DNA of 59,837 nucleotides, counting the filler, from Circinaria calcarea (lineage: Eukaryota), in assembly GCA_051942165.1 (NCBI GenBank). It is 4 parts of 4 records of this genome, joined end to end, with 100 filler letters (N's around TTAATTAATTAA, not from the genome) between each part and the next. Parts side by side here need not be neighbours in the genome. Positions count along the whole stretch, not along the records: positions 1 to 14,890 come from JAVECS010000400.1; 3 more parts are not named here. One strand, written 5' to 3'. Positions 1 to 53,338 of the stretch are shown in pieces. The position numbers and the translations under genes were made by a program. The notes beneath the pieces were generated by a model that saw only the letters and a program-made list of their open reading frames with translations, was not told where the DNA came from and made no database searches. Numbering within the stretch: position 1 is the stretch's first letter; each line of letters starts with the position of its first letter.

Positions 1-335
1 GAATATAATAAATCCCGATTAATAATAACACGGTTATATAAAATATAATTAAATTATTATTTTAAATTTAATATTAAAAAATAATATTAAAAAATAATAT
101 TAAATATAATTTATAAATATATTATTTTAAAGAGCGCGGAATAGTTTATTTATATAATATTAATATTTCTTAATAATTTTTTTACTCCCTGGGATCCTTA
201 GGAGCTATCGGGAGCATAATACGTGATATGTTCTCACTGCTCCCTGCTAAGTCTTGGGAGCACCCGGGAGCGCCCGGCTCCTGGTTGCCCCGTTCCGGCA
301 CTCGGCCTGCCAGGGTATGGCGTCGCGCCATAACA
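1..335. mobile_element. AT-rich degraded repeat at contig edge, possibly the end of an LTR
   Basis: Bases 1-180 are extremely AT/TpA-rich (RIP-like), followed by short GGGAGC/CTCCC repeats ending in CATAACA (329-335), the reverse complement of a TGTTATG-type LTR start. The LTR identity is inference. Confidence 0.35.
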
Positions 336-1281
336 ACCACCACTCGTTTTTTTATATACAAGTAACATGCAGTGCTATTATAATCACGAATTTTTAACGC
401 ATTTCTACAAGTGAAAGGTTATATGAAAGCCTTGATTAAGGCGACAAAAATGAGCCCCCACATGCTAGAATCCGTTGTATGCGTAGTAGTAAAGATCGCA
501 TTTTAATATATACGTATTTACGTGGGAGCTGCGCGGAAGGGTAAACCCCGAACCCTGTAAAGGGCATCGGCCCAGCAGGGATAAGAAGACAATATAGTTA
601 GGAAAGAAATCCAACTACCTACAATGCGGCATTCAGAGGTGTAAGAGAAATAGCTGGTATCCCAGTCCCTCAACTTTGCAGCATTCGTGCTATGACTAAC
701 TTACAGATACTACTTACTTCCTTGTTGCTCAGTACGACAACCCTCGGGCCAGGCAAGGAGTCAAAGCAGATTGACTCCTCAGGGGCATGCAAGATTGAGA
801 TGGTGTGCTGCGGCTCATCTATACCACAAAGTTTTGATATTGATCGTACTCAGATTGGCTTTGCGTCCAGTTGACACCTCGTGTTGACAGTTGTCTATAT
901 ATCAATTGGCCTTTCCCTCTACTCAATGTGCGGCCACACTCTCATCCAGCTCGACTGGCTGGCTAGTCCTCACATCCAGCCCGTCAATGTCGACGGACGC
1001 TCTCTGGGCCAAAGGATGAACCAGTCCAAATGAGTTGAGAAGCACTACGAGGAAGGAAGGGAGGGCTTGGTTAACATATACGCCCAGAAGAGCAGGAAAG
1101 CTCTGCGCGTCGCCTGCGGAGCCTGAAGATGGGCCCCAGGGAAGGCAAGAAACGAGATATGTACCCCCAGATATGTATTCAGGCTGGCAAGTGATTCCCC
1201 TTGAACCGAGAGCCCGTGTCTTGCGAACGAAGCTATGGTCTGACAGGATAGTGCTTACACGGTTTTTGTGATGTGCCTGGA

Positions 1282-1331
1282 TGACCCTGACGGACCCGAG
1301 TTGAGTTGACCCTGACGTACCCGAGTTGGGT
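1282..1331. promoter_or_regulatory. 25-bp tandem repeat in the NR-PKS promoter carrying the shared cluster motif (AACTCGGGT on the minus strand)
   Basis: TGACCCTGACGGACCCGAGTTGAGT (1282-1306) and TGACCCTGACGTACCCGAGTTGGGT (1307-1331), 2 mismatches, about 250-300 bp upstream of the ATG; TATA-like GATATATAG at 1472. Confidence 0.6.
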
Positions 1332-1581
1332 TAAACGTGTATACATTCCGACCTGCAGTCTAATTTCGGGCCAATTACCGGTGAAAATTGAGTCTGATGC
1401 CTTGACTGGGCTAGCAAGTCTGGATCTTACCTTCTCGTACTGAAATACCGACTTGAGATTCAGATACCAGGGATATATAGTGCGCCCTTACTTACTCCCA
1501 ATTTACTTCCTCTGTTTCCACACAGTACTCTCAACTTGTTGTACCTCCTTTTAACAAGGAGGAATCTTAAAAATAATTACA

Positions 1582-4500
1582 ATGTCTGGAATCAAGACAG
1601 ATGGCCTCCTCCCGGAGGACACGCCGCCCAACGCTATCGCTGTCATCGGCATGGGATGTAAATTCCCTGGAGCCGACTCAGTCGAAGAATTCTGGCGCAT
1701 CTTAGACGCGGGACAGTCAATGCTGAGCGAGCCTCCCAGCAGACGCTTTCCGACCCATGACCACCAACGCAACACCGGAAAGATGGTATATTTTAGCAAC
1801 TTTCTCGACGACATTGCAAGCTTTGACCACCGCTTCTTCAAGAAGTCCAGCCGCGAGGCAGCGTCGATGGACCCTCAACAACGACTTTTGCTGGAGGTTT
1901 CCTATCAAGCGTTGGAATCTTCTGGCTTCTTCGGTCCTCATGAACCGGACCTTGACGTTGGCTGTTTTATCGGAGTATGCGCGTCTGACTATAATGATAA
2001 TGTGGCTAGTCATCCGTCAAACGCTTTCTCGGCACTAGGGACCTTGAGAGCCTTCGTTCCAGGTAGAGTCAGCCACTTCTTTGGGTTATCTGGACCCTCG
2101 ATTGCTTTAGACACGGCCTGTTCATCGTCAGCAGTTGCCATCGATGCTGCCTGTAAGGCAATCCTCCATGGCGACTGCAAGAGCGCCATTGCCGGTGGTG
2201 TCTCAGTTTTCACGAGTCCATTCTTCTACCAAAACCTATCGGCTGCCTCTTTCCTTAGTCCCACCGGTGCGAGTAAATCGTTCGATGCCAGTGCTGATGG
2301 CTACTGTCGTGGAGAAGGCGTTGGTCTCGTGGTCTTGAAGCGACTTTCGCAAGCTGTCGCAGATGGCGATACCGTCCTAGGCACGATTCTCGCCACCTCG
2401 GTCAGACAGAGCAGCAACAGGGTGCCCATCACTGTTCCCTACAGCCCATCGCAGACGGCGCTGTATCGCAAGCTCTTGAGTACAGCTGGTATCGCTGCCG
2501 AGGACGTCACTTACGTCGAAGCTCACGGCACGGGCACGCCCGTCGGTGATCCTCTCGAATACGAAGCTATCAAGGAGGTGTTTGGCAGCAAGTCGAGACG
2601 AGAGCCACTTCATTTCGCCTCCGTGAAGGGGAACATCGGACACACCGAAGGAGCCTCTGGAGTGGCCGGCCTCATCAAAACCATTCTAATGATGCAGAAC
2701 CGCGCCATCCCCAAACAGGCTAATTATGTGTCGGTGCATCCCAAGATCACCCTTATACCAGGGCAGTTGTCTATCCCGACAGAGACCATTCCGTGGACTG
2801 CCAATACGCTCATCGCGTGTGTTAACAATTATGGAGCTGCAGGTAGCATCGCTGCTATGGTTGTCAAGGAAGCGCATCCAAATAAGGGGCAGGGGCAGAG
2901 TCTGCAGACTACCAGGGCTCGAGGGCTGAAAAAATGTCCGCTCATCCTCACTGCCAACAGTGTTAAGAGTCTCGGTGAGAACTGCGCTAAGTTGAGGGAC
3001 TATGTGTCCTCGTTCCACCAGGACCCTGCTTCGGCCGCGAATATGCTGGTGGATCTCACTTTCAACCTGAGTGATAAGCAAAATCGGACATTGCCCAACA
3101 TGTTCGCAACGACGGTCTCCAGCTTGTTAGATTTGGACAACCAGCTTCGTATTGTAGCCTCGAATCCCGATTCGAGGCTCTACCAAACCAACCCCAAGCC
3201 GAATCCCATCATTCTAATCTTCGGTGGTCAGACGGCTCGGTCTATAGGACTCAACAAGCACGTCTACGATACCTCAGCACTCCTTCGCAAGTACCTTGAT
3301 GAGTGTGACGAGATAACCAAAGGCTTTGGCTACCGGGGCATATACCCTGACATCTTCGATACGAAGCCCACAGACGACGTCGTTTTACTTCAGACGATGC
3401 AATTCGCCATGCATTACGCTTGCGCTCGATCATGGATTGCCTGCGGTCTGAAGGTTGATGGTGTTCTGGGCCATTCTTTTGGTCAGCTGGTTGCCTTGAC
3501 TGTGGCTGGCATTCTTTCGCTCGTAGATGGTCTCAAGCTGGTGCACGGACGAGCTGTCCTGATGCGCGACAAATGGGGTCCTGAAAGGGGCTCCATGATT
3601 GCTCTCGAAGCTGACCACGGGGACGCTCTGAGCCTCATCTCGTCAGTACGAAAGACCAGTGCCTCTTCTGACTTTGGACTCGACGTGGCATGCTTTAATG
3701 GGCCCAGGAGTCATGTTTTAGTTGGATCGTCTGCGGAAATTGACTCTGCTCTTGTCGAGGTGGCCAAGAAAGCCCCAACGGCTAAAGTCAAGGTCTTGGA
3801 TGTGACGCACGGCTTTCATTCGAGGTTCTGCGATCCCATCCTACCCGATTTGGAGAAGCTTGCCCAGGGTCTGACGTTCAACAAGCCCAAGATATACGTC
3901 GAGACCTGCTCTGATGGGGACACATGGCCGGTTGTCACGGCAAAGCTGATAGCCGACCACACTCGCACGCCCGTCTACTTTGAAGATGCAGTCAAGCGCA
4001 TCGAAGCCCGATACGGCGCATGTACGTGGTTGGAAGCCGGATCCAATACATCAGTCACCAGCATCGCTCGTCGCGCTCTATCCGACCAGAAGAGCAGCAA
4101 CAATACCAACACCAACAGCCTCTTCTGTCCCGTCAACTTGAGCCGAGATGACGCCCTGAGCGCATTAGCAGACATGACTGTCAACCTCTGGAAGCATGGT
4201 CACCATGTTCAGTTCTGGCCATTCCACCGCATCCATAGCCAAGACTATCGGGCTCTAAACCTACCTCCCTACCAGTTCGAGAAGACACGGCACTGGCTCG
4301 AGTTCAGCCTTCAGTCAGAGAAGACATCTGAGTCAGCCCCCGCGCTGCCCAAGACGCCTGAGCGGCCACTTATCGAGCAAGAGCCAGAGCCAGAGCCAGT
4401 ACTCATTACCTTCTCTGGCTTCCAGGATGCTGGAGATGGTGTTCGTGTTGGCCAGAAACAGGCTGTTTTCATGATTGACCCGCGTTCGGAGGAGTGGAAA

Positions 4501-7500
4501 GCACTTGTCGACGGTCATTCCGTGCTACATGAGCCTCTGTGTCCAGCACCTCTGTACATCGAACTGGTTCTGCAGGCTGCCAAGCAGCTTGCGGCCATCG
4601 AGAATATGCCCTGCGCACCATTTGCTCGCCTGGATGACCTAGAGATCACCTCGCCGCTGGGTATAAGTCAGGATAAAATCGTTCAGCTTGTCCTGAGGCC
4701 GTCCGACCAAACGGGATGCAAGTTCAATTTCTCTTTCCTTGCACAAGGACGTCACACGGGCTCCGGAAGACAGGACACGCTTCAAGTGTCTCAGGTAACA
4801 ACTACTCACGCTGATGGGAGAGTTGAGATCATTCCAGCTGACGACACTGCCGTTACTGCTGAGCTCGAACGGACGAGGAAGCTCCTCCAGCACATGCCCC
4901 TGAACCAGAGCCAGGACCGAGACCAGAAGTTCGCCGAGATGGTCACGCAGCCTGGCGGCGAGGCTGTTCATGGTACACTCGTATACAAGGTGTTCTCCAC
5001 GGTTGTACAATACCGTGACTTTTACAAAGGCGTTCGCAGAGTTGCCAGCAACAACGACGGTGCAGTGGTGGCAGAGGTTTACCTGCCAAAATCACAGCCG
5101 AGCTGCATCCAGGAGCTCCTCTCCATGCCAGTGGCCATCGACAACTTCTTCCAGGTTCCTGGGTTATATGCAAATTGCCTCGCACCGTGTCCGTCAGACG
5201 AGGTCTTTGTCTCCACGCACGTCGATCGCATCCAGTTGTCGCCCGAATTCGGCAAGCTGCAGGTCGAGGGGAAAAGCCACGGCTGGGATGTTTTTGCTAT
5301 ATCCACCGCAACAAGCGACAAGGAAAGTAGCAACGACATTTTCGTCACTGACCAGGTTACTGGCCAGCTCGTTTTTGTCGCATTTGGTGCAAAATTCAGT
5401 AGGGTACGAACCACATCCCTTGCAAAGATTCTGTCTCGTGCGAATTCGGACAATGCATCTGCAGTTATAGTTTCTACATCTGCTCAACGAGGTCGTGTTG
5501 AGAATACCCTGGATCCTTTTATAGCACCTCAGGTGAAGCCCCAAGCAATCACCTCGAGTCACTTGCATTATCCTCGTCCTGTCCAGCCGCAGCAGCCTCC
5601 ATCTTCAAGCAGAAAAATCCCCGTTGATCAAAGCCCGCCGTCGTTGCCGTCTCTTAATGGAACCGGGCCTCAAATATTTAGCGTGGAAAATGAATTACGA
5701 GAAATGCTCAGCAAGATGACAGACCTACCCGCGGATCAATTTCAGGGACATTTCACACTCGATAAGCTTGGCATCGACTCTCTGATGATCACAGAGATTG
5801 TATCAGAGGTTTTTGAAGTCTTTCATATATCGATACCGCAGGATCGTCTCCAGGATTTACAGACCGTTTCATCTCTCTGTAAATATCTAGATACCCATAA
5901 TAGTCGACAAGGATCTCAGAAAGAATTGGACATCCCTCAGCCTGAGGTAACTCCATTCACACTTCCACTTCCACATACACTGCCCAGCCACCCAACTGCG
6001 AACCAACAGATTAACCTCGGCCATAGAATCGAACAAATTACATCAGTGGCCGGAAGTTCCAAGATTAAAAAGTACGATCAGCATCAGGATCTGGTGTCGC
6101 GGTTGGCGAGCCTGTTAGGCAGCCATCTTGATTGTCCAGCGAGCGACTTTGAGCGCTCGACGAACCTCGTAGATCACGGCCTAGACTCTCTTCTCTGTAT
6201 GGAACTCATAAGCGACGTGGAGGAGATGTTTGGCGTCTCGATCGACCTATCTATTTTCACGGGTGACGGCAACTTCGGCCAACTTGCCGATATACTCGTC
6301 AGTGCGGTTGCGCCCTCTGGATATATAAGCACGACGAATTCGACCACAGCTGCTTCTACGCTGGTACAATCGTCTGGCCTCATCACACCTATCACCGTTC
6401 CTGATAATGGCGTCGACGAGGCCTATGTCTTGACAAGGACGACGAAGGCTTTTTTTGCTTCTTCGACAATCGATGTTCTGGCTAGCGCAGCTCGGGAATT
6501 CGAGGGCATCAAGGGTGATTTCGACAAGCTTGCAGACGAGTACGAGTTCAGTGACTTCTACGGTAGGGTATACGACAAGCAGGCACACTTGGTTCTAGCC
6601 TACGCCGCAGAGGCCTTCTCGGACCTTGGCATCGACCTAAGTTCGTTAGGACCTGGTGACCGGATCCCCAGAATCAGTGTGGTACCAAAACATAACCGCA
6701 TGCTTGATGTTCTCCACGAAATCCTCCGTCATGGCAAGTTGGTCGACTACGACGGTAGAGGATATATTCGCTCGGACGTGCCTGTCGAGACGATCAACTC
6801 TAGCATCCTTTTCAGAGACATCGTGACGCAGTTTCCCCAGCATGCCAAGGAGCACATGCTCTTGAGTCTCTGCGGAGCTGACATGTCCAAGTTCTTGAGT
6901 GGCAAGATGGATCCCCTCTCCGTCCTATTCGGGAGCAAGGCGAACCGAATCATTCTCGAAGACGTGTACACCACGGCTCCCATGTTTATCATCATGTCGC
7001 AGCTTCTCACATCATTTCTCGAAAAGGCATTGAGCACATCAGTACCTGGACCCGACGGTAAGTTCCACATCGTCGAGTTGGGAGCAGGCACAGGCGCTAC
7101 GACACGTTGGGTCGTAGATCGTCTTGTGCAGCGGGGGATACTCATTGAGTACACTTTCACCGACATCTCGGCTGCACTGGTGTCAGCGGCCAAGCGCAAG
7201 TTCGCCAAGTTAGACTGTATTAGATATGCCACTATCGACATCGAAAAGGAGCCTCCAGCCCAATATCAGGGGCAATTTGACATTGTACTCGCAACCAATT
7301 GCATCCACGCCACCAGCAGCCTTTCCAACTCTCTGGGCAATATCAGCAAGCTCTTGCGGCCCCACGGCTTTGTGTCGCTGGTTGAGTTGACGACTAGGAA
7401 TTTTTGGTTAGACATGGTCTTCGGTCTTCTCGACGGCTGGTGGCTATATGATGACGGGCGCCCTTATGTGCTCGCGACCCCAGAGTTCTGGGAAAAGTCC

Positions 7501-8751
7501 ATGCGACAAACTGGATTTCAACACGTTTCATGGACGGGCGGGCACACGCGCGAGTCTGAGGTCGTCAGGGTCATCACCGGTTTTAAACAGCCAGTCGAGG
7601 ATCCATCCTCGTATCGCAGTACACCCCAGGAGAAAGCCGGTGGTGTTGAGACGGTTGTTTTCGCGCACACTGACAAGAAACTTCCGCTACGAGCAGACGT
7701 CCACTATCCTTCGCCGTCCCAGGCGTCCGCTCTCGGGACTTGGGTCGCTGGTACGGTACAAGTCTGCTTATCTACATAGATACGCTGGAGCTGACGCTGC
7801 TCTGGTGCAGGCTTGATGCTCCATGGAGGGGGCCATGTAATGCTATCACGTCAGGATTTGCGTCCGCGCCAAATCCAACTTCTCCTCGACAACGGCGTGC
7901 TGCCTGTAGCCGTAGACTACAGACTCTGCCCAGAGACCACAATTCTGGACGGACCGCTCGTTGACGTCAGCAACGCATATGCCTGGCTACGGAACACGCT
8001 GCCATCGTTGAAGCTTACACAGACTAATACCAATAGACTGCTCGATCCCACCCGGGCTGTGGTTATCGGCTGGTCGACTGGGGGCACGCTGGCCATGTCC
8101 TTAGCCTGGACCTCTATATCACGTGGGATCCCACCTCCCGACGCCATTTTGGTCTTTTACTGCCCAACCAACTACGAAGACGACTTTTGGCGAAAGCCCA
8201 ATATCCCAGACCACTCCGACAGGTTTGCACACGAAACATATAACGTTATTGATGGGGTTTTCCCCACGCCCATCACCTCGTACAATGTGCCTTCCAAGAT
8301 GATGGCAGCAGCAGGCTGGATAGCGCCGAAAGATCCTCGCAGTCGGGTGGTACTCCACATGAACTGGCACGGACAAACGCTGCCTGTTCTTTTCAGGGGC
8401 CTCCCATCAGCATCGAGTGTGTCACCACAAGCTGCGGCTCGTTTCAACCAACTGGAACAACCGCCGAGAGAGGACATCGTGCGGGCTAGCCCCTACGCGC
8501 AGATAGTTCGGGGCAACTACAAGTCGCCAACGCATGTCGTGTTTGGCACCAGTGACGATCTGATTCCGTGGCAGCAGGCCCAGCGGACGGTGGAGGTGAT
8601 GAGAGACGCGGGCGTCGAGTCTGGGCTTACGCTCGCGCCGGGTCAGCCTCACCTATTTGATATGTATCGGGATCCTGACGGAATTCGCTGGGGTTATATT
8701 ACGGAGGGATATAAATTTCTGCTACGGAGGATTGGGAGAGAAATTATATAA
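1582..8751 (+). CDS. Non-reducing iterative PKS, KS-AT-PT-ACP-ACP-CMeT-esterase (methylorsellinic-acid-synthase type), no N-terminal SAT; join(1582..7750,7811..8751), 2369 aa
   Basis: KS DTACSSS, HGTGT, NIGHTE; AT GHSFG; PT His/Asp dyad (GHSVLHEP, AIDNFFQ); two ACPs (LGIDSL, HGLDSL); CMeT ELGAGTG and NCIHAT. A 60-nt GT-AG intron (gtacgg...gctgac...cag) joins in frame to an alpha/beta hydrolase with HGGG, GWSTGG, DD and H, as at the C-terminus of MpaC/AusA-type PKSs. Confidence 0.95.
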
Positions 8752-8892
8752 ATTATTATAATGGAATAATAATGCTGGACAGGTTAATCTTAAAATATAT
8801 AATATAAATTTTCGAAATTCCAGAGCATTATTTGAATTTAAGAATTTTATTTCAAAAAATATAATTATACGATATATTTATTTAAATCTAAA
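8745..8892. repeat. AT-rich, RIP-like spacer directly after the PKS stop codon
   Basis: Abrupt switch to TpA-rich low-GC sequence between the PKS and the P450 promoter. Confidence 0.4.
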
Positions 8893-8893
8893 T

Positions 8894-8943
8894 CACTCGG
8901 GTCCGATAACTCGGCCGTGGTAGCTGAACAACTCGGGTCCGAT
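8894..8943 (+). promoter_or_regulatory. Clustered shared motif in the P450 promoter
   Basis: CACTCGGGTCCGAT (8894-8907), AACTCGGCC (8908-8916) and AACTCGGGTCCGAT (8930-8943); GC-rich islands in AT-rich DNA with CGG-N2-CCG geometry. Confidence 0.6.
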
Positions 8944-9098
8944 TAATTTAATTAATAGTAAATTTAATAAATCTAGGAACTTATCCCCAAAAAGCTCGCG
9001 AGCCCGGTCAAATTTATATACTTGCGCAATAATTTGTCTAAAGTCGGCTATCAAGGGCACGACCTGACTTGCAGACATTAAACTCACCCAGTATCGCT

Positions 9099-11078
9099 AT
9101 GGATCTAGGAAAACTCTCTGAGCATCTCGACGGCAGGGCCTCCCGCTTGGCCGGGATTCTAGCCATTGTCGGCATCCTCGTGGCCGTTTTCAACACGTTC
9201 CATTCATATACGCGCTTAAGACATATCCCCGGGCCACGTCTGGCAGCTCTCACCAACCTTGTTCGTCGGTCGTGGGTCAAGACTGGTGACGCCCATCAGA
9301 TACACACCGATTTGCACCGGCGATATGGCACGGTGGTGCGGTTCGGACCCAATGCGGTCATGGTATCTCAGCCTAAGGCCATCGACAAGATCTATGGGTT
9401 CAAGACGAGATTTCAGAAGGCATGCTATACATTTTTCTTACCGGGGTTTTTCTCTCTGTGTAGGTAATCTGACACCTCTAACGGGCCAAATTATTAGTCC
9501 GAGTTTTACGATGCTATTATGCCCCGAATGAAGGGCGGCAAGATTCCAGACGCTTTCGCCACGCGTGACGAGGACGTGCATCGGCAAATGAGACGGCCTG
9601 TTGCTAATCTGTACTCGGTTACGAATTTAATCACGTTCGAGACCCTCATGACGTCTACTGTGCAATATTTCTTTGTCCGCTTGGACGAGCTGTTTGCTAA
9701 CAAAGGCGTCGATCTGGACCTCTTCAACTGGATCCAGTTCTTCATGTTCGACGTCCTTGGTGAGGTCACGTTTTCTCGGGGGCTGGGGTGTCTCGAAAAA
9801 GGGGGAGATCCCGAGGACATCATCCACGACATCTGGCTCTACTTCAAGAAAATTGCAGCAGTGCGTGTCTATCCCGAGGTCGTTCTTTCAGGCAGTCTCG
9901 ATCTCCTCGCTAATCGTTTGTCAACCCTTAGAACACCCAGATGCCCTGGCTCGATTACTTGTGGAGGGATAATCCTCTAATCCCCGTCTCGTCCAAAAGG
10001 AATACGCTAGCCGAGTTCGGCGCTTCTCGGATCATGGAGCGGATAAGTCTGACCGAGGACGAGAAGCAAAACATCAGCCAGAGAGATTTCCTCTCGTGTT
10101 TCATAAAGGAGAAGGCCAAGGACGATACGCTGCCTGATATGTAAGGACCTAGTTTGCTCAAGACTTGGCGGCAAATATTACGTGCATACGAAACTGATGC
10201 ATAACGTACGCACAGGTTCATTCCCACATGGGTCAATTCCAACATCGTGGCAGGTGCAGATACGACTAGCATACTGGCCAGTGCCGCGATGTATCATCTT
10301 CTCAAGAACCCTTCCTCGCTCTCAAAGCTCAGAAAAGAGGTCGACGACGCCGCGGCTGAAGGCCGCATTTCCAGATACGTAACCTGGAAGGAGTCTCAAA
10401 CCTTGCCCTACCTAGAAGCCTGCGTGAACGAGGCCACCAGAATGCATCCCCCTTTCGCCCTCCCCTTTGAGCGCGTGGTACCTGTGAATGGACTAGAGGT
10501 GGACGGCTATTTCATCCCCCCAGGCACAAGAGTCGGGATGGTAAAGACATCCTAATTCAGTTTTTTTTCTTCTTTTTTATTTAGATTCTTAAAGCCCGGG
10601 TTTTGCTGATATTTTCTTTGATGTTCTAGAGCCCATGGGCAACGCAACGTGAAGTGTCGCTGTACGGTAATGAACCTGAAGTCTGGCGACCAGAGCGATG
10701 GATGTGCGATGAAGAAAAGAGAACGGCCATGTACAACGGACTTCTCACGGTAAGTTTAATCACCATCACACACGACACCGAGCGAATTTCAACCTTTCGT
10801 ACGCACTTGGCTCACTCTTCAATTTTCTCAGTTTGGCGCCGGTCACCGAAGCTGCCTAGGAAAGCACCTTGCCTACTTCGAGATCTACAAGCTCATCCCG
10901 TCGCTTTTACAGCGCTACGATGTGAGTGGAAATGGAGGTATCTGTTCAAGTAGATTCAAACCCAATTAACAATCTCCGTCAGATCGAACTTGTAAGCCCA
11001 GCTGAGGACTGGTCTGTTGAGAACAAATGGCTTGCCAAGCCATCCGGGTTCCGTGTAAAACTGTTAACCCGCCGTTAG
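9099..11078 (+). CDS. Cytochrome P450, MpaD/CicH-like; exons 9099-9419, 9498-9860, 9932-10140, 10216-10540, 10630-10749, 10832-10921, 10983-11078
   Basis: N-terminal TM helix then IPGP; I-helix AGADTT; EATR (ExxR); PERW; heme motif [10 protein letters not shown]. All introns splice in frame (intron 1 is GC-AG). The pattern [11 protein letters not shown]...VRFGPN...[13 protein letters not shown] resembles the P450 half of MpaDE as I recall it. Confidence 0.92.
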
Positions 11079-11266
11079 GATTATATAAACATTTATATAT
11101 ATGCTTTTATGGCGCAGGTACATAAAATAGAGATAGAATTGATGCAGATATAATAAATAGATTATTGGGTCCGGACGCGAGTTGCCATGAGGCATATATG
11201 TGTGCTAGTTGTGGCTACACAACTTGCATCGCCTAAGATAGCTTGTCGTGTTGATTGAGTCGCATG

Positions 11267-11311
11267 CACTCGGGGCCCCCCTTAACTCGGGCCCCCCTTA
11301 ACTCGGGCCCC
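11267..11311 (+). promoter_or_regulatory. Triple tandem motif in the DMATS promoter
   Basis: CACTCGGGGCCCCCCTT, AACTCGGGCCCCCCTT and AACTCGGGCCCC (16-17 bp period), about 140-190 bp upstream of the ATG; GATATATA at 11368. Confidence 0.6.
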
Positions 11312-11452
11312 GTCGACTCGCATCCAAGCAGGGACTGCTACAATCATGTCGCATCAAGCATAAAAGTGATATATATCGTTACTACTCTCTCTGAAGCCAT
11401 GATATCAGTCAGTGGTCTGCCCTGAACCACCATCCCTCCATCGTAAATAACT

Positions 11453-12868
11453 ATGCCAGCTCTCATCACAAAGTCGCAGGGTCAACTGACACCACCACTC
11501 AAGGTATGGCATTCACTGCTAAAGAACTGTCTCCCGCCCGCGAGAGACAAAGATGTCGAGTTTTGGTGGCGACTCACCGGGTACCACCTAGCGGTCATGA
11601 TTGACGCGGCTGGCTATTCCACGGAGAAGCAGTATGAGACGCTGCTTTTCCATTATCACTGGATTGTAAGCAAGCAACCCCCGTCATAATGAAAGATATA
11701 ATGCTTAAGAAGTTTTCTGATGGGGGTCCACTGGGATGTTCAGGTGCCTCGATTGGGCCCAGCACCCGAGCCTGATGGCCGTCCTGTGTTCAAGTCGCTT
11801 ATAGCCTACGATGGTTCGCCCTTGGAGTACTCGTGGAAATGGAACACTACGAGTGGCGAACCCGACATCCGCTACTCCTGGGAGGCAATCAGCGACGCCT
11901 CAGGTACGGCCGCTGACCCGTTGAACCATGATCCCACGCTGGACTACATGGAGAAGGTGTCGACGGTGCTCCCAGGCACCAATTTCACTTGGTATCGTCA
12001 CTTCCTGGCCGAGCTGTTCGACTCGGATAGGTCCGTATACGCCAAGGAGCTGGAACAGGGTGACCCACCGGCCACGACCCTCATGCACGCGGTCGAGTAC
12101 AACAAGAAGGCCAGCTTCGGGCTCAAGTCGTACTTCTTGCCAAGGAAACTGTTCCAAGGAGGAGACCCCGCGACTTTGCAGGAATGGGACGACGCCATCA
12201 TGAAGCTCAACCCCGGCAGAAGTCACCCTGGCCGGAATGCTCTGATGAATTTCCTTGCAACCAGCCCTGAGGGGCAGCTCATGAAGCCCAACGTTATGGG
12301 CATGGACGACGTGGAACCATCCAAGTCGCGGCTCAAGATGTACTTCACATCGCGCCACACCAGTTTCCAGTCGGTCCGAGAAGTCATGACCATGGGTGGA
12401 CTCCGAGATGTTTCCGAATCCAGTCTGCAGGACCTGCGCTCCCTGATTGTTGCCGTCTTGGGGCTTCCGGAGGATTACCCGGAGGATGCCGAGATTTCCG
12501 TCGAGTCGACCGGCGGCAACGAATGGCCTGACTTTGACGCACTATGCGAGGGATTCGTCTACTTCTTCGACATTGCTCCCACGAGTGGCAAGCCCGAGGT
12601 CAAGTTTTACTTGACCACGCGTAAATATGGGTCTGACGATCTGACCATCGCTCGGAATCTGATGGCTTGGCTGCGCGCCCACGGTCGCGGTGCCTATGCC
12701 GATGCCTACCTCGGTATGCTGGAGAAGCTTGCTGAGCACAGAGGGCTGGAGAATGGGAAGGGAATGCATGCTTACATCAGCTATCAATGTACCGAGAAGG
12801 GAGAACCAGACGTGAAGTCGTATATTTCTCCCGAGTTATATCACAAAGCGCGATATGCTGCAGTCTGA
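11453..12868 (+). CDS. DMATS-superfamily aromatic prenyltransferase, XptB-like (phenolic/polyketide acceptor type); join(11453..11665,11744..12868)
   Basis: FWWRLTGYHLA..AGYS.EKQYE.LLFHYHW|VPRLGP, DGSPLEYSWKWN, LKSYF, SRLKMY, VKFY and VKSYISP prenyl-diphosphate-binding motifs; 78-nt GT-AG intron. Confidence 0.92.
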
Positions 12869-12997
12869 AATCACTATGCTGGGGAAATATCATGACCGGA
12901 CAATTTCAAATCCTCGTTGAACCAATCATAATATTTCATAGTGACGCGTACGTGTACTATTTGAATGAGGACTAAATAGGGGTGAAGCCTGCCATGA

Positions 12998-14604
12998 TCA
13001 GGGTTCTAATTGTAGGAGCTCTCGTGAAACCTCAGTGTTCCAAAGCTGGGCATCCTCCCACAGGGATCGGCCAGGAACGTCGTGCAGCGTGTGTATCCAA
13101 GGAAACCTACACAGCTGACAACGGATAGCTGGCCAATCATATAGCTCCAGTCGTTCACAAGTCTCCAAAATTAAACACCGATGGTCCTTGCCTTTCAAAA
13201 CTGATACGCCACCAATAAACAGAGTCCACAAAAGTAGTGAGAACCCGCTGTCCTGGGTGTCTGCGGACGGGATATGGAGATCCTGAATGGCGCTTTCCAG
13301 GCGATTAGAAAGAAGGTGGCTGGAGTCGTCACGGCCGTATTTCGGAAGCAGGGTGGTCATGAATGCCAGCATTGCCAGATGTGCCACATCGTCATAGAGT
13401 CCTCCCAATGTGGGGCGTGGTTGCCCCAAAGGAGCGACTTCTATCAGACGATAGAGGAGTGATACTAGCGTTTCCGTGTAACTCAGCGGGTCGAGCTTCA
13501 CTGGGCCCTCCCTCTCCCTGCTGTTGAGGAGGCTGGCGAAGCTGACGACACTGAGCATAATACATGAAAGCCGGGAGGTAGTGCTAAGGAGCTGCTCCTT
13601 GACAATGCAAGGATCGCCTGAGACGCCGTTCATGGGTACTACCGCGTCGCTGCGGAACACAGTAGGTAACCCGGTTTGCAACGCCAACTCGACGTCAAGC
13701 CTGGTAATCGTAAGATTTTTCGCTTCAAAAAAAGCAAGAGAAAAAAAGAGGGCCGCGGACGCAAGCATATGCACTTACCTCAATGGCTTCAGCGCTAATG
13801 CACGGTTCTCTTCCATTAGTCTGGCGATTCCTCCCCGTAGCTGGATCATTCGATAGAGCCCGTTGAGGTGTATTAAGCCTATAGAGTGCAGATGATGTAT
13901 TTGTTGATAGATGGCGAGGGTAGCCACAGCAGCTATAGCGCTGTCTGAAATAGATTCAGGGCCCGACAGCTTTAGATTGACCAACGCATACGCCTGTGAA
14001 ATGTGATATAAAGTTTTGGAGGATATTCCAGGCTTACGCTCAAAGAAGTCGACATAGGACGCTGATATAGCCAACGTGCTGTGGAAGTCTGGGGGGTAAG
14101 GTATTAACGTTGGTGAATGAAGGTGGCGTGGCATTTAAATATATTACTTACATGCTTCATCTGCCAGGACACAATTAACCCAAATTGATTTGACGATATC
14201 GAATTTCGAGCAGAATTGGGGCGGAAACAGCGCATCGCTAATATCAAAGAACCCTGAGAGGAGTATGTAAGCGAAGACGAAGAAAGTAATGCAGGGAGTG
14301 AAAATAAAACGCTATATATACATCGATGCATAAGTTTGGTAGATTCCGAGTCAAGTTGTAGTGGGAATGATATAAGACACAAATCATTCCAAAGCAGCCG
14401 TCGTCCCGGTTTTGAGTATTCTGATCTTAATATGCCGGGGGCGGTCTGAAGGCGTTTGATATGAATGATGCTTGTTTGTTTTCTCCTCGATTGGCGTGGT
14501 CTGCCCGCATTCTTGCCTCTCATAACATGGGAACGAATAATGCGCCGGTCAGATTCCGACGGACCTATCCCAATCGCACCCTGATCGATAAATTGCAGCG
14601 TCAT
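12998..14604 (-). CDS. Fungal-specific transcription-factor-like protein (Fungal_trans_2/DUF3468-like) without a Zn2Cys6 cluster; 4 exons
   Basis: N-terminal basic RRIIRSHVMRGKNAGRPR motif; spliced LADEAY|FHSTLA; HLNGLYRMIQLRGG; LLLWTLFIGG; FPWI. Three GT-AG introns keep the frame. Confidence 0.75.
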
Positions 14605-14890
14605 GCCTATTATGTTGGCCTTTTCTTATCGCGTCGTGAGTGCGTAAAATAATCTTACAAGGAGGCTGAAAATTCCGGACACCGCAAGACTAAATATTTC
14701 GAATACCTGGCTATCAGCTAATCCTTCGCGGGGTTATCTCGCTTACGCAGTTTCACCACTTAATTATTAACTCGCGCCATAATTAATTAAAATTAATTAT
14801 TCGTACGATGATATTATTAATACACGTGGCCAATATATATATAGAATAATTCTATATAAACGGAGCCGCGCACTCACCCCCCGTTTCGCC

Positions 14891-40416: not shown

Positions 40417-42248
40417 AGAGAAAGGGGTTTAAGAATAAGTCGACAATGAGGAGAGGGTACGCGCTGGGGGATTAGGGATGCAGTGAATTCTAGGTTGTGA
40501 GGGTAGATACGATACTTGGTTTAGAGCTTCAAAAGGCAAACTGATGAAGAGACAGCGATGGGGTACCGTATAATACTTTTCGGGGTAGTAGGACCCCATA
40601 TAGATCGAAGATTTACAAATTTATACCCCACCTCTAGAGACTGGAGTAGCCTGGAAAGGTCACTACTGCCACAAAGTTTTTGGCTCGACTAGTGGTTTGC
40701 ATACACTATCGCCAAAGCATTCATTATCGTAAAACGCAATAGCTTACTGTCGCAACGATTCACTATCTCAATAACTGCAATCTATATTGGGGGGGAAGTC
40801 GCCAGGGGGGAGTCGTCCGGTTTTCTCAAAGTAAATTAGCAACGGCAGCAAGAGCAACAGAGGCAGCAACTCACAGCAACAGCAGATGCAGATACAAATC
40901 CTTCAATAGGAGCTAGCAACCTCCAAGGACCTCGTCGAAAACGGTTTGTTGCGAGGGAAAATCAAAGGCGAGCAGAAGAGCGTTAATAAGAGCACTAATA
41001 AGAGTAATTATTACAAGAGTAAGGTCCCACAAGTACGAGTTGTTAAGTATCAATCATAGTAATTTCAAAATACGCATACCAAATGGGTGTTAGGAATACA
41101 GTGGTTTAGCAGCCAAGTAACCAGTAAGAAGAGACCGAAGTTTATGAACCTGCTGAAACATGTTGTATAGGAGATGATATATATCTTAATACCTTGGTAC
41201 TGAGAGCTGGTATATATAATGGATGTTTAAACAAGCAGATATTCTTTAACTCCTGGGGATTTCATTCAGACTTTAAGATGTCTACCGCCGAAGGCCTCAG
41301 TTAATTTGATAGTGATGGGCAGAGACAGGTTTTATATTAACAGAAAGCGAAGTGGCGAAATTTGGCGGGCTTAGCTAGTGTGAGGCCGTAGAGTACTTTA
41401 CTTGACAAGTATCTAAGGCTGAAATATGTGATAATGTGAGGCACGAGCAATACGGTGGCTATACGCAGTGTATTCGAGAACATATTATTTCAAAAAAAGC
41501 AGTGTACGAGTGAAAGGTTTCACTATAGCGCCAAGACGCCAAATAAGCAAAATATCGCCACCCTCTAAGCGTAAAGCATCACAGTCGCGTGGTTTTGTAT
41601 ACCCATATACTGTTTTTTTCAAAAAAGGGTTATATGATATCGGATCGGAATAACCTTCTTACGCGGAGCTAGTTTGAAAGAAGTCTGATGCCTCCGGAGC
41701 TTGCGGAGGTGGCACTGAGGCAATACAAACCCGTACAGAGCACAGACAGCACGGGCTAGAATCCTTCACTAATCCACGTACTATATGGTACAGGGTTAAA
41801 GACAAGGGTATTTACTTACCCGATTTTTTAACAGCGCTTTAATACTTTTCCCGAGTCTTTCCACAACACCGCATAGAGAAAAGAATAGTGGTCTCGTGAG
41901 AGATAATACGCTTGAGCAAAAACTATCAGCCATATCAGAACTGTATTTCCGCCACTAAATGTACCATACCTTGTCAGTGATAAAAGCGGCGTTGTATAGG
42001 AACTAATGAATGCCACGAAGGATTCATAAAGGATTCACGAAGGATTCTAGCCCGAGCTGTCTGCACTCTGTACAAACCCGTCTATGCAATGTCATCTGGT
42101 GTAGTTACTAATCGCATCGTGGCTTTGGTGGCCGTCCAGCATCCACTCCAGGTGAGCTTCAATATGCATCTACTTCATCTTCTTTCCGCTCGGTTTCGAC
42201 CACTCGCAGCCATTGAAATCTGTCGGAAAGTTGATATCCGGTTAAAAC

Positions 42249-44506
<2,258 letters not shown>

Positions 44507-45705: not shown

Positions 45706-48700
45706 ATGGTGTCCTCTCACCGTCTTCAACGGCGGAATACATCGACGGAACAGGGAAGTCATGTGGAAGGTTTTGAGCCAGAGCCAGAGCCAATCGCCAT
45801 TGTGGGCTTGGGTAAGTTCGAGCTTCTTATGCTTTTCACATTATGCTTATGTATGATTAGCTTGCAGGCTCCCAGGTGAGGTTAACAGTGCATCTTCGCT
45901 GTGGCAGTTATTGGAAGAACAGCGGTCAGGGCAGTCTAGCGTCCCTTCGTCTCGATTCAATATCGACGGATTTTACCAAGCATCAAGGCCAGATGCTCCT
46001 GGCGGCCTCAATATGAAAGGAGGATACTTCCTGTCAGAAGATATTCGCGCTTTCGATAACGAATTCTTTGGTATCAACGCCATGGAAGTAACACAGATGG
46101 ACCCTCAACAACGGAAGCTGCTTGAGGTCGTCTTCGAATGTTTGGAGAGTGCGGGAATCCCGCTGGACCAAATCGCAGGATCAGATACTGGGTGTTATGT
46201 CGGCAATTTTTCTTGTGACTACCCCGTAATGCAAATGAAAGATCCGGAATATCTTGACCGATATAGCGCCACCGGAGTTGGGGCGACGATACTGGGTAAC
46301 CGTATCAGCCACGCTTTTAACCTTCTAGGTCCGAGGTATACCTCTTAGTCTTGAGAATTCTTGGGGGAGAACTCTAACCACTTTGATAGTATGGTTATCG
46401 ACACTGCTTGTTCCGCATCACTTTATTGCCTTCACACCGCTTGCGTGGCGCTTGAGACCAAAGAATGTGATGCCGCGATAGTGGCTGGAGCCAATCTAAT
46501 TCAATCGGTTGAACAATACCTTGCAATGATGAAAGCCGGTGTTCTTTCGGCGACATCCACAAGCCATAGCTTTTCGGATGCTGCCGATGGATATGCGCGG
46601 GCTGAAGGTATCGGCGCCTTGTATGTGAAGCGTCTTAGTGACGCTCTTCGAGACAATGATCCAATTCGTGCTGTCGTTCGAGGAACTGCCGTGGGCCAGT
46701 GAGTTTGCCTTATGCGTGTTTCCAACCGAGCAACATGACTCATTCGACAATTTTAGTAATGGTAAAACAAATGGGATATTACGACCTAGCGGCTCTGCTC
46801 AGGAGGCAGTGATTCGGAAGGCGTACAAGAAGGCTTGCCTGGACCTTGATGGGACTTCGTACATTGAGTGTCATGCAACAGGTACGCGTGTTGGCGACCT
46901 AATCGAGGTAGAAGCGCTTTCACGCGTGTTTAATCGAAGCCTCGAACATCCTCTGCGCATTGGTTCGGTACGTGTCTATTCTCTTCTCATTTCCTCTCCT
47001 ATGTACACTGTGGTGAAACGCCTAGCAGAAGCTCTTTACATGATGCTCTCGCTTTATTGTCTACCTCCTCTTGTTGGGCCAACTTTAATTACCCTCTCCG
47101 TAGATCAAGACGAATATTGGACACAGCGAAGCTGTGAGCGGTTTATCAGGACTATTAAAGACTGTTCTGGCCTTGGAGAAACGGCGGATCCCTGCAACAA
47201 TTGGCGTTCAGAGCGTCAATCCTAAAATCAAGACAGCTAATTGGGGAGTTAAAATTGTTACTGAAAATCAAGAATGGAGACCACAGCGCCCAACCTCCTC
47301 ATCCAAAACCGTACTGCGAGCAGGAGTCAGTTCTTTCGGTTACGGTGGTGCGAATGGTCATGTTATACTCGAAGCCGCTGAACATTGGAAAAAAAAGATC
47401 GATCAGGGCGCTGAAGGAAGATCTATGATTGAAGGTTTAGATACCCCGCGAAAGACTACATATCTCCTTCCATTCTCTGCTACCAGCGCCAACGCTTTAA
47501 ACGCGCGAGTCTCCGATATCAGCAGATTTGGCACTGGAGATCTGGATATTGCAGACCTTGCTTATACTCTCGGATGCCGTCGTACCCACTTCTCTTGCCG
47601 AGGATATCTCATTGCTCACAAGGAGAGCTTGAGCAATGACTTAAAAATCGAATCTCTTCGGACTCTCCCTCATATTAAGCCTCACACATCCCCCCCTGAG
47701 TGTGCATTCGTATTCACCGGACAAGGTGCTCAATGGGCTGGCATGGGCAAAGAGTTGTTCGAAGAATTTCCTACTTTCCGCAAGAGTATTAGGGATATGG
47801 ATATCATCTTAAGGCAACTCCCAGTTCCACCCTCATGGACACTCGAAGAAGTTATGTTCGAGCCTGCAGAGACAAGTCCGATCAATAATGCACCTATCGC
47901 ACAACCAATGGTGACGGCTATACAGGTGGCTATGGTTGAACTCCTAACCTCCTGGCGCGTTTTCCCCAAAGCTGTCATCGGGCATTCCTCTGGAGAAATT
48001 GCGGCGGCTTTTGCGGCTGGAGAGATTTCTTCCGCACAGGCAATCATTGCCGCTTACCTTCGTGGCTATGTCAATGGCCTGAACAAAGTGGATGGCGCCA
48101 TGATGGCTGTTGGTCTTGGTAGCGAAGACGCCACCTCTGATGTCCATCTTCTAGGTCTATGCAAGAAAATTGCCCTTGCTTGTGTGAACTCACCAACGAG
48201 CGTCACCTTGAGTGGAGACGCAGAAGCGATCGCCACACTGTTAGAAGACTATCAGAATCGCAGTATATTCGCGAGAAAACTTAAAACGGGCGGGAAAGCC
48301 TACCATTCCCATCATATGGCAGTTTTAGGGCCGCAATTGGTGCAAATGATTGAGCAAGCTCTATGCCATCTACCACCCTCAAAATACCTGAATCGCAAGG
48401 CCGAATTCATCTCGACTGTGACAGGAGGACCAAAAGATTCTCACTTTGATGGGAAATATTGGCGCGCCAATATGGAATCTACAGTGCTCTTCTCCCAAGC
48501 TGTGGAGCACCTTATAAATCATCACAAGGTGCATGTTATTGAGATTGGACCGCATAGTGCTTTGGAACTGCCGATCAAACAAATACGGGCAAAGCTTGGC
48601 ATTGCCGAAGAACACAATCCCTATTCTACGGCACTTACGCGGGCTAAGAATGGAGCGGAGTGCATTCTTAATCTTTTGGGTCGGCTCTACCTCCATGGGC

Positions 48701-51700: not shown

Positions 51701-53338
51701 TGAACTTGGAACAAATGACTTGGACACCGGGAAACTCGATATGAATGTCTTCAAACGCAATACAACATTCTCAGCGGTGGATCTCAGCATGATTTTTTTC
51801 GATAATCATGCCTCGAGTCAAGCTTTATGGGCGAAGTAAGTCTACTTTATCTCTGTTGATTAACGAACTCTGACAAGAGCAAAGCCTCCTTACGAAAGTC
51901 ATGACCCTCTATCGATATGGTACTATAACCCCCATAGAACCCCTGCAGACTTTCGATGTTTCTGAGTTATCGAAGGCCTTGCATCAAGTCTCTTCTGAGG
52001 AACGGGTTGGGAAAGTAGCAGTGACGGTGGAAAATCCTACTTCATTGCTTCAGGTACCTTATAAGCCATGCCATTTAGGAAAGCAAATGACTAACTCAGT
52101 TATTAGGTACAACTTCCGCAATACAGTTTGTTTCTAGATCCCCAAAAAACATACTTCCTGGTAGGCTGCCTTAGTGGAATCGGCAGCAGCATCTCGAGAT
52201 GGATGATGACCAGAGGCGCTCGAAAGTTTGTCTTCATGGGCCGCTCCGGAGTAGATAGAGATAGTGCGCAGACGCAAGTTGATGAACTCAGAACGAGTGG
52301 TGCCGATGTGAGAGTTGCCCGAGGTGATGTAAGTAGCTTTCCCGATGTCAAGCGGATAGTAGCAGAGGTCGAGGGCAAGATCGGTGGAGTCTTGCACGCG
52401 GCGATGGGATTGAGTGTAAGTCCTGTCCCATAATGACTTCTAATAAAGACTAAACAGGCTTTTAGGAGGCTTTATTTACCCAAATGTCAACCAAGGCTTG
52501 GCATACTGCAATTGATCCAAAACTTCAAGGGTGCTGGAATCTTCACAACGCAATTAAGGGTAAAGATGATGAACTGGACTTTTTCCTTATGACTAGTTCA
52601 ATCTTGGGAAGCATAGGAGCAGCAGCTCAAAGCAATTACTGCTCGGCCAACTACTTCCTTGATGTTTTTGCTCGATATCGGCGATCTTTAGGTCTACCTG
52701 CAGTGGCCACAGGACTGGGAATGATTACAGGGGTTGGCTACCTCCACGAGAACCCAGAAATCGAGGCGCTCCTATCACGGACGGGAATCTCGGCACTCGA
52801 TGAAGGTGAGATGCTGCAGGTGATTGACATTGCGCTCTCTTCGAAGCAGCAATCGAGCAATCCATTCGACAAGTTTTCGGAAAGTCATATCCTCACTGGC
52901 TTGGAGCCATCTAGTTATGAAGCCCTGCGAGCAAAGAACCTGGAGGTATATTTCCCGGTTATGCATGATCCACGTGCGAGTGTCCTGGCCGCCTGCATCA
53001 CGGACGCGGACGACAGATCGGTGCAAGGAGCCAGCGAGTCTCTCCCCGTCGAAGTCGCTACCGCAATCAGCGCTGGGTCTTCGATGGGCGAGGCAATCGC
53101 CTCGTATATCATCCAACGCTTTTCCGCACTGTTACAGATACCGACGGAGCGAATGGATGTTTCCAAATCCTTGGTTGCTTTTGGAATGGACAGCATGATC
53201 GCTACCGAAATTCGAACGTGGTTCTTCCACGCTTTCAAGATCGATGTACCGTTTTTCGACCTGCTGGCCAAGTCCACTACTGTGGGCACGCTTACGGAGA
53301 GGGTTGTCATGACAGAAATGAAGGGAGACGGGGAATGA
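45706..53338 (+). CDS. Highly reducing iterative PKS, KS-AT-DH-(vestigial CMeT)-ER(degenerate)-KR-ACP; 9 exons
   Basis: KS DTACSAS, HATGT, NIGHSE; AT GHSSG; DH HKLEEMVIFP and IDALLQ; ER-like region with LIHCEATDFG; KR GCLSGIG and QSNYCSAN; ACP GMDSM. Eight GT-AG introns splice in frame. Confidence 0.93.

What the first reader, a model, noticed from the sequence alone, without database searches (positions are those of the whole stretch)
1582..14604. Minimal NR-PKS + P450 + DMATS cluster that may make a prenylated methyl-phthalide or methylorsellinate
Seen: three co-oriented intact genes plus a convergent regulator-like gene, bounded by AT-rich DNA. Known: CMeT/esterase NR-PKSs (MpaC, PkbA, AusA) release methylorsellinic acids; MpaD/CicH-type P450s oxidise the ring methyl towards phthalide or isoindolinone cores; XptB-type DMATS enzymes O-prenylate phenols. 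Mycophenolate and DMOA meroterpenoid clusters use UbiA-type prenyltransferases, so a DMATS here is a different design. Inference: the product is a dimethylallyl(oxy)-methylphthalide-type compound. I do not recognise this exact gene set as a characterised cluster.
Basis: partly seen in the sequence, partly recalled or inferred. Interest (0 to 1): 0.8.

Follow-up and report, generated by a model that had tools for sequence, protein, structure and literature searches.

The report
Split zinniol-type fungal biosynthetic gene cluster
These three fungal genes are half of a larger, known type of gene set for making small prenylated aromatic compounds related to zinniol; the other half sits on a separate assembly fragment, and the core enzyme lacks a domain long thought necessary in this group of fungi.

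Summary
The three enzyme genes are real and intact, but the cluster is neither minimal nor a new design. Window 1-14890 is one whole contig, so the 'boundaries' are contig ends. The PKS, P450 and DMATS are homologues of ZinH, ZinA and ZinC of the characterised Alternaria zinniol/zinnimidine cluster (about 55-64% to proxy proteins). They are closer still (66/74/76%) to the Pestalotiopsis fici PFICI_00364-00369 locus, whose product I found no report of. Another contig of this genome (C911) carries the missing carboxylate reductase (A-T-R), SDR and Myb regulator. It is the only other contig with several copies of this cluster's promoter motif ACTCGGGYCC. Likely route: methylorsellinic acid, then aldehyde, alcohol, ring-methyl hydroxylation and dimethylallylation, giving an O-demethyl zinniol/phthalide-type product. 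Whether the acid is 3-methyl or 3,5-dimethyl, and whether prenylation is on O or C, is open. Verdict: new variant of a known kind.

The parts
1..14890 (.). Whole contig G000:C400; both ends are assembly ends, followed by an N-linker-N spacer
1292..1326 (-). Promoter motif copies upstream of the PKS (ACTCGGGTCC at 1292-1301; variant at 1317-1326), antisense to the gene
1582..8751 (+). SAT-less NR-PKS, KS-AT-PT-ACP-ACP-CMeT-esterase(TE), 2369 aa; exons 1582-7750 and 7811-8751; ZinH/PFICI_00366 homologue
8895..8940 (+). Two ACTCGGGTCC copies upstream of the P450
9099..11078 (+). Cytochrome P450, 507 aa, 7 exons (first intron GC-AG, 9420-9497); ZinA/CicH family, 74% to PFICI_00368
11268..11310 (+). 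Motif copies upstream of the DMATS (ACTCGGGCCC at 11285 and 11301; variant at 11268)
11453..12868 (+). DMATS-type aromatic prenyltransferase, 445 aa; exons 11453-11665 and 11744-12868; sister clade to ZinC, 76% to PFICI_00369
12998..14604 (-). Convergent gene, 465 aa, 4 exons; its homologues carry Fungal_trans_2 (PF11951); no Zn2Cys6 cysteine pattern seen; no motif upstream; probably a neighbour rather than the pathway regulator

Best explanation
This is the PKS-P450-DMATS half of a zin/cic-type reductive methylorsellinate pathway, orthologous to the P. fici pnl locus (PFICI_00364-00369). The other half (SDR, Myb regulator, A-T-R carboxylate reductase) is on contig C911. Shown here: gene content, intact enzyme genes, homology, shared motif. 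Inferred from the ZinH/F/E/A/C experiments: (1) the SAT-less PKS primes without a SAT domain, builds a tetraketide, C-methylates it (once, 3-methylorsellinic acid, my estimate 60%; twice, DMOA, 35%), cyclises it and releases the acid; (2) the A-T-R reduces the acid to the aldehyde; (3) the SDR reduces it to the benzyl alcohol; (4) the P450 hydroxylates the adjacent ring methyl to give a 1,2-benzenedimethanol; (5) the DMATS adds dimethylallyl, most likely on the para phenol oxygen as ZinC does; (6) re-oxidation and lactonisation give a phthalide, or an isoindolinone if an unlinked ZinD-like oxidase is recruited. No ZinB-like O-methyltransferase was found, so an O-demethyl analogue of zinniol or its phthalide is expected. 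The Myb protein is inferred to drive the genes through AACTCGGGTCC.
For: PKS 58% to a ZinH proxy (P0049) and 66% to PFICI_00366; P450 64% over 381 aa to a ZinA proxy (P0221) and 74% to PFICI_00368; DMATS 55-56% to ZinC proxies (P0146, P0342) and 76% to PFICI_00369. By eye against the published zin sequences, the P450 shares 4 intron positions in the part of zinA seen, and the DMATS shares zinC's first intron position. A ZinF-like query found C911 as best hit (60%; next 42%). C911 holds an intact 1092-aa A-T-R and a 334-aa SDR and Myb repeats. The motif has 58 genome-wide hits (reversed control 67); only C400 (5) and C911 (3) carry more than one; Poisson P for 3 or more on C911 is 9e-7. The C911 A-T-R has PnlA's residue pattern G260/V264/T304/L324/L352/Q355 at exact spacing, where 5 of 5 other A-T-R matches printed have H (PMC9605436). 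PKS, P450 and DMATS have consecutive accessions or tags in Seiridium unicorne, Penicillium hordei, P. fimorum, Colletotrichum abscissum, C. fioriniae and Trypethelium subeluteriae. Metagenome locus L004 shows Myb-ATR-PKS-P450 contiguous, with 7 motif copies (0 of 100 shuffles).
Against: No physical join of C400 and C911 was shown: no end overlap, and C911's left end matches nothing else. No ZinB orthologue was found with 3 queries, so this is not the zin pathway as such; ZinA was shown only on an O-methylated substrate. The DMATS falls in a sister clade, not inside the ZinC clade (quick tree). No member of this exact PKS subclade has a demonstrated product in the papers I found. Intron 1 of the C911 Myb gene has no canonical acceptor at the position used in two homologues. 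Zin comparisons rest on proxies and by-eye reading, not on computed alignments with the Zin proteins.
Confidence: 0.72

Rival explanations
1. One reading: PKS, P450 and DMATS suffice. The P450 oxidises the ring methyl of the free acid, which lactonises as in the MpaC/MpaDE route (recalled), and the DMATS prenylates the phthalide.
For: The three genes are adjacent in at least six named genomes, so they behave as a module. A phthalide can form chemically from a 6-hydroxymethyl acid (established chemistry).
Against: A-T-R, SDR and Myb genes share the motif on C911; P. fici keeps A-T-R and TF beside the PKS; ZinC gave no product with the free acid; the contig ends explain the apparent minimality.
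Confidence: 0.12
2. Variant of the best explanation: the PKS makes DMOA. Both free ring carbons are then methylated, so the DMATS must O-prenylate (or dearomatise), giving a dimethyl homologue not made by the zin or cic clusters.
For: The C911 A-T-R has PnlA's Q355. PnlA converts DMOA 100% against 58.8% for 3-methylorsellinic acid, and its authors proposed DMOA for PFICI_00366. The window PKS groups with PFICI_00366 in a 13-row clade (support 100) apart from the ZinH proxy (FastTree).
Against: DMOA for PFICI_00366 was proposed from 34-37% identity, not shown. The nearest PKS with a shown product, ZinH (58% by proxy), makes 3-methylorsellinic acid. PnlA is promiscuous (14 of 28 substrates).
Confidence: 0.3
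3. The cluster is intact in its enzymes but silent or decaying in this isolate, because the Myb regulator cannot be spliced to full length.
For: No canonical acceptor at the homologous site of Myb intron 1; the nearest upstream acceptor leads to an early stop. Bases 1-545 are not shared with two close relatives.
Against: One site in a fragmented assembly may be an error. All five enzyme genes are stop-free and the motif copies are retained.
Confidence: 0.2
4. The DMATS C-prenylates the free C5 of a 3-methylorsellinaldehyde-type substrate, leading to chromane or chromene products instead of a prenyl ether.
For: Without O-methylation the ring stays activated. The DMATS forms its own 15-row clade. 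ZinC's listed nearest known homologue is a P. roqueforti prenyltransferase (W6QY29, 43%), which I recall as the C-prenylating AnuH (recalled, not checked).
Against: The closest characterised relative found, ZinC, O-prenylates. C-prenylation at C5 is impossible if the PKS makes DMOA.
Confidence: 0.2

Closest known systems
Pestalotiopsis fici pnl locus, PFICI_00364-00369 (PnlA characterised in vitro, PMC9605436)
   Same: PKS 66%, P450 74%, DMATS 76%; same PKS-P450-DMATS order by locus tags; A-T-R with the same Q355 pattern; a TF beside them; PKS also starts at KS (residue 19), although the paper lists a SAT.
   Different: Here split over two contigs, in the order SDR-Myb-A-T-R; P. fici has an unidentified gene (00367) between PKS and P450. 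I found no reported end product for the locus.
Alternaria alternata zin cluster (zinniol, zinnimidine, prenyloxy-methylphthalides; PMC12268544)
   Same: Homologues of ZinH, ZinA, ZinC (this contig) and ZinF, ZinE, ZinG (C911); SAT-less PKS; DMATS-type prenyltransferase; shared intron positions.
   Different: No ZinB O-methyltransferase found; ZinD-like oxidases are unlinked and lack the motif; PKS and DMATS fall in sister subclades at 55-58% identity; A-T-R has Q where ZinF has H (read by eye).
Aspergillus nidulans cichorine cluster (pkbA, cicB, cicD, cicE, cicH)
   Same: NR-PKS for 3-methylorsellinic acid, A-T-R, CicH-type P450 (55% to the best A. nidulans var. acristatus hit) and a Myb-like pathway regulator (PMC8395729).
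   Different: That cluster has an O-methyltransferase; no prenyltransferase counterpart is listed in the zin paper's comparison.
SAT-less basidiomycete NR-PKSs, clade XII (PMC10401856)
   Same: Architecture begins at KS, so priming must be SAT-independent.
   Different: Mushroom hepta/octaketide synthases without CMeT; relationship not tested here. That paper concluded that the ascomycete enzyme it tested needs its SAT.

Membership tests
zin-type (zinniol/zinnimidine) cluster | ZinH-like CMeT/esterase NR-PKS | tested here: met
   58% to proxy P0049; proxy assigned by N-terminus and length against the supplement
zin-type (zinniol/zinnimidine) cluster | ZinA/CicH-like P450 | tested here: met
   64% to proxy P0221, 55% to A. 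nidulans-group hit; shared introns by eye
zin-type (zinniol/zinnimidine) cluster | ZinC-like DMATS | tested here: met
   55-56% to proxies; sister clade, joint support 99 in a quick tree
zin-type (zinniol/zinnimidine) cluster | ZinF A-T-R, ZinE SDR and ZinG Myb regulator | tested here: met
   All on contig C911; Myb intron 1 lacks a canonical acceptor
zin-type (zinniol/zinnimidine) cluster | Physical clustering of all these genes | tested here: inconclusive
   Two contigs, no overlap; shared motif
zin-type (zinniol/zinnimidine) cluster | ZinB O-methyltransferase | tested here: not met
   Not found with 3 queries (best 28-51% short matches). The assembly is incomplete, and 41 PF00891 matches exist, none on a contig with the motif
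zin-type (zinniol/zinnimidine) cluster | ZinD flavin oxidase (isoindolinone step) | tested here: inconclusive
   Homologues on C3156 and C2158, unlinked, no motif; the C2158 match holds 2 stops
P. fici pnl locus | PKS, P450 and DMATS of the same subclade plus an A-T-R with Q355 | tested here: met
P. fici pnl locus | Same chemical product | not testable with these tools
   No product found in the papers searched
Canonical ascomycete NR-PKS | N-terminal SAT domain in cis | tested here: not met
   KS at residue 18; no SAT match on C400 by tblastn (best E 0.015, inside the AT region) while the control paralogue C153 scores 9e-56; no PF16073 match on C400 or C911 among 15 genome matches
Mycophenolate / DMOA meroterpenoid clusters | UbiA-type prenyltransferase | tested here: not met
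   The prenyltransferase is PF11991 DMATS
XptB-type O-prenyltransferase | Closer to XptB than to other DMATS enzymes | not tested
   No XptB sequence was returned under that name; the nearest characterised relative found is ZinC

The most novel reading that the evidence does not exclude
A widespread but unrecognised clade of naturally SAT-less, active ascomycete NR-PKSs. This subclade makes DMOA and passes it through a reductase, a P450 and a DMATS (not UbiA) enzyme to an undescribed non-methoxylated prenyl ether, is shared by lichen-forming and plant-associated fungi, and is controlled by a Myb factor binding AACTCGGGTCC. The SAT-less part alone is likely (about 0.8, given ZinH); the probability below is for the whole statement.
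Probability: 0.2. Interest if true: 0.68.

Novelty: new variant of a known kind. Interest (0 to 1): 0.42.

Why it matters
As a cluster it is a modest find: a sister of a pathway solved in 2025, with an uncharacterised but predictable product class, present in many genomes. Two side results are more useful. First, 79 of the top 87 PKS homologues begin at the KS domain, and ZinH, which does too, gave product when expressed alone. This sits badly with the 2023 statement that no active SAT-less ascomycete NR-PKS had been reported, and it gives a ready system for asking how such enzymes prime. Second, a short promoter motif recurs across homologous Myb-bearing clusters. It offers a testable binding site for CicD/ZinG-type regulators and a way to reconnect clusters split in fragmented assemblies.

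Tried and rejected
SAT hidden upstream or on C911: no tblastn match upstream with 6 SAT-type queries; one weak match on C911 (E 0.015) falls inside the Myb gene and was treated as chance. Alternative PKS donor at 7756: 13 stops, rejected. Alternative P450 acceptor at 9941: open, but the 9932 model aligns gap-free to homologues. Joining C400 to C911 by end overlap, or through the loose-end motif of related runs: nothing found. Expression: no RNA holder listed. Contigs of 4 related runs cover the genes; one extends about 16 kb upstream, but its content is not shown. Convergent gene as regulator: no Pfam match in its exons, no motif upstream, and the 3 named records among the 10 clusters looked up (of 150 hits) come from species not in the PKS-DMATS subclade lists; a weak test. 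Cyclopaldic acid as product: suggested by recalled producer lists, but the search listing gave no cluster paper and the passages read did not bear on it; left as an untested lead. Earlier scan findings: none in 3 look-ups. PDB: best match 9iia (E 8e-85), function not followed up. No structure or complex prediction was run. The careful DMATS tree did not finish; the quick tree was used.
Full report
Observation. The window is four contigs of about 14.9 kb joined by N-linker-N spacers. Bases 1-14890 are the whole of contig C400 in a 31.5 Mb, 5512-contig assembly. The finding therefore spans nearly a full contig and its limits are assembly ends. Bases 1-200 are 14% GC and the right end is 38-40% GC. 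Stop-free spliced models were obtained for the PKS (2369 aa), P450 (507 aa), DMATS (445 aa) and the convergent gene (465 aa). The P450 model needs one GC-AG intron and aligns without gaps to 3 of 3 annotated homologues tested. Pfam gives KS, AT, DH-like (PT), two ACPs, methyltransferase and Abhydrolase_3 for the PKS, and Trp_DMAT for the prenyltransferase. Catalytic motifs are present (motif patterns partly recalled).

No SAT domain. The KS begins at residue 18. A group-VI-type SAT query finds nothing credible on C400 but scores 9e-56 on the SAT-bearing paralogue on C153. PF16073 has 15 matches in the genome, none on C400 or C911; it detects the C153 SAT only weakly (1e-4), so the tblastn test carries more weight. 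Of the top 87 of 120 listed homologues, 79 have a leader under 45 residues before the KS start motif, 2 have longer leaders (one is an annotation fused to an A-T-R) and 6 lack the motif; over all 120 the counts are 80, 24 and 16. So this is a clade trait, not damage. PMC10401856 (passages and section 9 read) states that no characterised active SAT-less NR-PKS had been reported for Ascomycota as of 2023. ZinH is 2308 aa, its listed gene begins about ten codons before the KS start motif (read by eye), and it gave 3-methylorsellinic acid when expressed alone in A. nidulans. The word SAT does not occur in that paper's main text. Caveat: that host has its own 3-methylorsellinate synthase. Two searches listed no paper on a SAT-less ascomycete clade; the library lacks most subscription papers.

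What the genes are. PMC12268544 (main text parts 1-3 of 6, supplement passages and part 3 of 15 read) describes the zin cluster. ZinH makes 3-methylorsellinic acid, ZinF reduces it, ZinB O-methylates, ZinE reduces the aldehyde, ZinA hydroxylates the ring methyl and ZinC O-prenylates, giving zinniol and prenyloxy-methylphthalides. ZinC gave no product with the free acid. I compared the window genes with database proxies chosen by matching N-termini, lengths or neighbouring locus tags: PKS 58% (P0049), P450 64% over 381 aa (P0221), DMATS 55-56% (P0146, P0342). Intron positions match by eye. A closer match is P. fici PFICI_00366, 00368 and 00369 at 66, 74 and 76%. PMC9605436 (passages, section 14 and supplement passages read) places the A-T-R PnlA (00364) and a TF (00365) beside that PKS. 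In trees, the window PKS (KS-AT region; 36 selected of 120 hits; FastTree) sits in a 13-row clade with Trypethelium, Bathelium, Seiridium, P. fici, Colletotrichum and Penicillium. The DMATS (40 selected full-length, mostly named proteins; quick IQ-TREE) sits in a 15-row clade with a similar set of genera, sister to the clade holding the ZinC proxies. PKS, P450 and DMATS have consecutive accessions or tags in six named genomes; in Bathelium the DMATS is five accessions from the PKS.

The missing half. A ZinF-like query from metagenome locus L004 hit contig C911 at 60%, the next of 11 matches at 42%. C911 (9593 bp) carries, on one strand, an SDR (334 aa), a Myb gene and an A-T-R (1092 aa). Independently, the motif ACTCGGGYCC, noticed upstream of all three window genes, has 58 matches in the genome against 67 for the reversed control. 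Only C400 (5) and C911 (3) have more than one. The C400 count is post hoc; the C911 count is not (Poisson P 9e-7 at a uniform rate). The A-T-R carries PnlA's reported residues at exact spacing, including Q355; the 5 other A-T-R matches printed have H. No physical join was found. Two motif copies at C911's left end suggest a further gene beyond it. A ZinB orthologue was not found with three queries. ZinD-like oxidases exist on C3156 and C2158 without the motif.

The motif elsewhere. I scored 10 of the 20 metagenome loci (most of the rest were near-duplicates or short). Counts against 100 approximate dinucleotide shuffles: L004 7 (0 of 100), L015 5 (0 of 100), L008 and L010 3 each (1 of 100; near-identical loci), L012, L013 and L014 1 each (not significant alone), L006, L016 and L017 0. 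In 6 of the 9 distinct loci a copy lies 170-600 bp upstream of the PKS match on the antisense strand, as in the window. L004 and L010 also carry a Myb gene. CicD of the cichorine cluster is a Myb-like positive regulator (PMC8395729, passages). That the Myb protein binds this motif is inference; one search found no paper. The convergent window gene has no motif upstream; its homologues carry PF11951, and I see no zinc-cluster cysteines in it. It is kept beside the DMATS in 4 of 4 related runs laid, so it is a stable neighbour in close relatives.

Mechanism and odds. Most likely (0.72) a reductive zin-like route without O-methylation: acid, aldehyde, alcohol, benzenedimethanol, dimethylallyl ether, then phthalide. 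All chemical steps are inferred from homologues. The open branches are DMOA versus 3-methylorsellinic acid (PnlA converts them 100% and 58.8%; DMOA for PFICI_00366 is only proposed) and O versus C prenylation. The rivals overlap with the best explanation and do not sum to one. Against activity in this isolate, Myb intron 1 lacks a canonical acceptor at the site used in L004 and L010; this may be an assembly error. A prenyloxy-methoxy-methylphthalide is reported from Pestalotiopsis photiniae (PMC3854414, start of abstract only), which fits the product class but has a methoxy group.

Novelty. The design NR-PKS + CicH-type P450 + DMATS is published (zin). This subclade, the pnl type, has one characterised enzyme and no product in the papers found (listings only unless stated). 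Other papers seen as passages only: PMC8262933, PMC9116485, PMC7426331 (first 300,000 characters held), PMC4320822. Figures were not visible, including Fig. 7 of the zin paper, whose cblaster panel may already show members of this subclade. Verdict: new variant of a known kind, interest 0.42.

Noticed in passing
L023 (G000:C911) 6547-5048, minus strand: Myb-type regulator; intron 1 has no canonical acceptor at the position used by homologues in L004 and L010. Splice defect or assembly error.
   Followed up: partly
L023 62-88: Two motif copies at the contig's left end, downstream of the A-T-R, suggest the promoter of another cluster gene just beyond the end.
   Followed up: partly
L001 (G000:C153) 39-6759 minus; 8632-9483 plus: A SAT-bearing CMeT NR-PKS paralogue (57% in KS) running off the contig end, beside a hydrolase-like ORF; no ACTCGGGYC motif in 20 kb.
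   Followed up: no
window 47104-53338 (fourth contig): Highly reducing PKS (KS end-AT-DH-ER-KR-ACP by Pfam), on a different contig from the finding.
   Followed up: no
window 42246-44470 (third contig): GMC oxidoreductase gene near a contig end.
   Followed up: no
L025 (G000:C2158) about 1800-3273: ZinD-like FAD oxidase whose match holds two in-frame stops; possibly a pseudogene.
   Followed up: no
window 11453-12868: The DMATS is 89% identical to a Monosporascus protein and 74-86% to proteins from several fungal classes; the patchy spread hints at horizontal transfer of the module, not tested.
   Followed up: no
P0034 (PFICI_00366): Published as having a SAT domain (PMC9605436), but its KS start motif is at residue 19.
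   Followed up: yes
window 1-545: Not shared with two close relatives, whose contigs diverge at 545 and agree with each other upstream; possibly a strain-specific insertion with an AT-rich end.
   Followed up: partly
L004 20007-25843: A zin-like metagenome cluster with two O-methyltransferase-like genes and a FAD oxidase but no DMATS within the 10 kb flanks.
   Followed up: no
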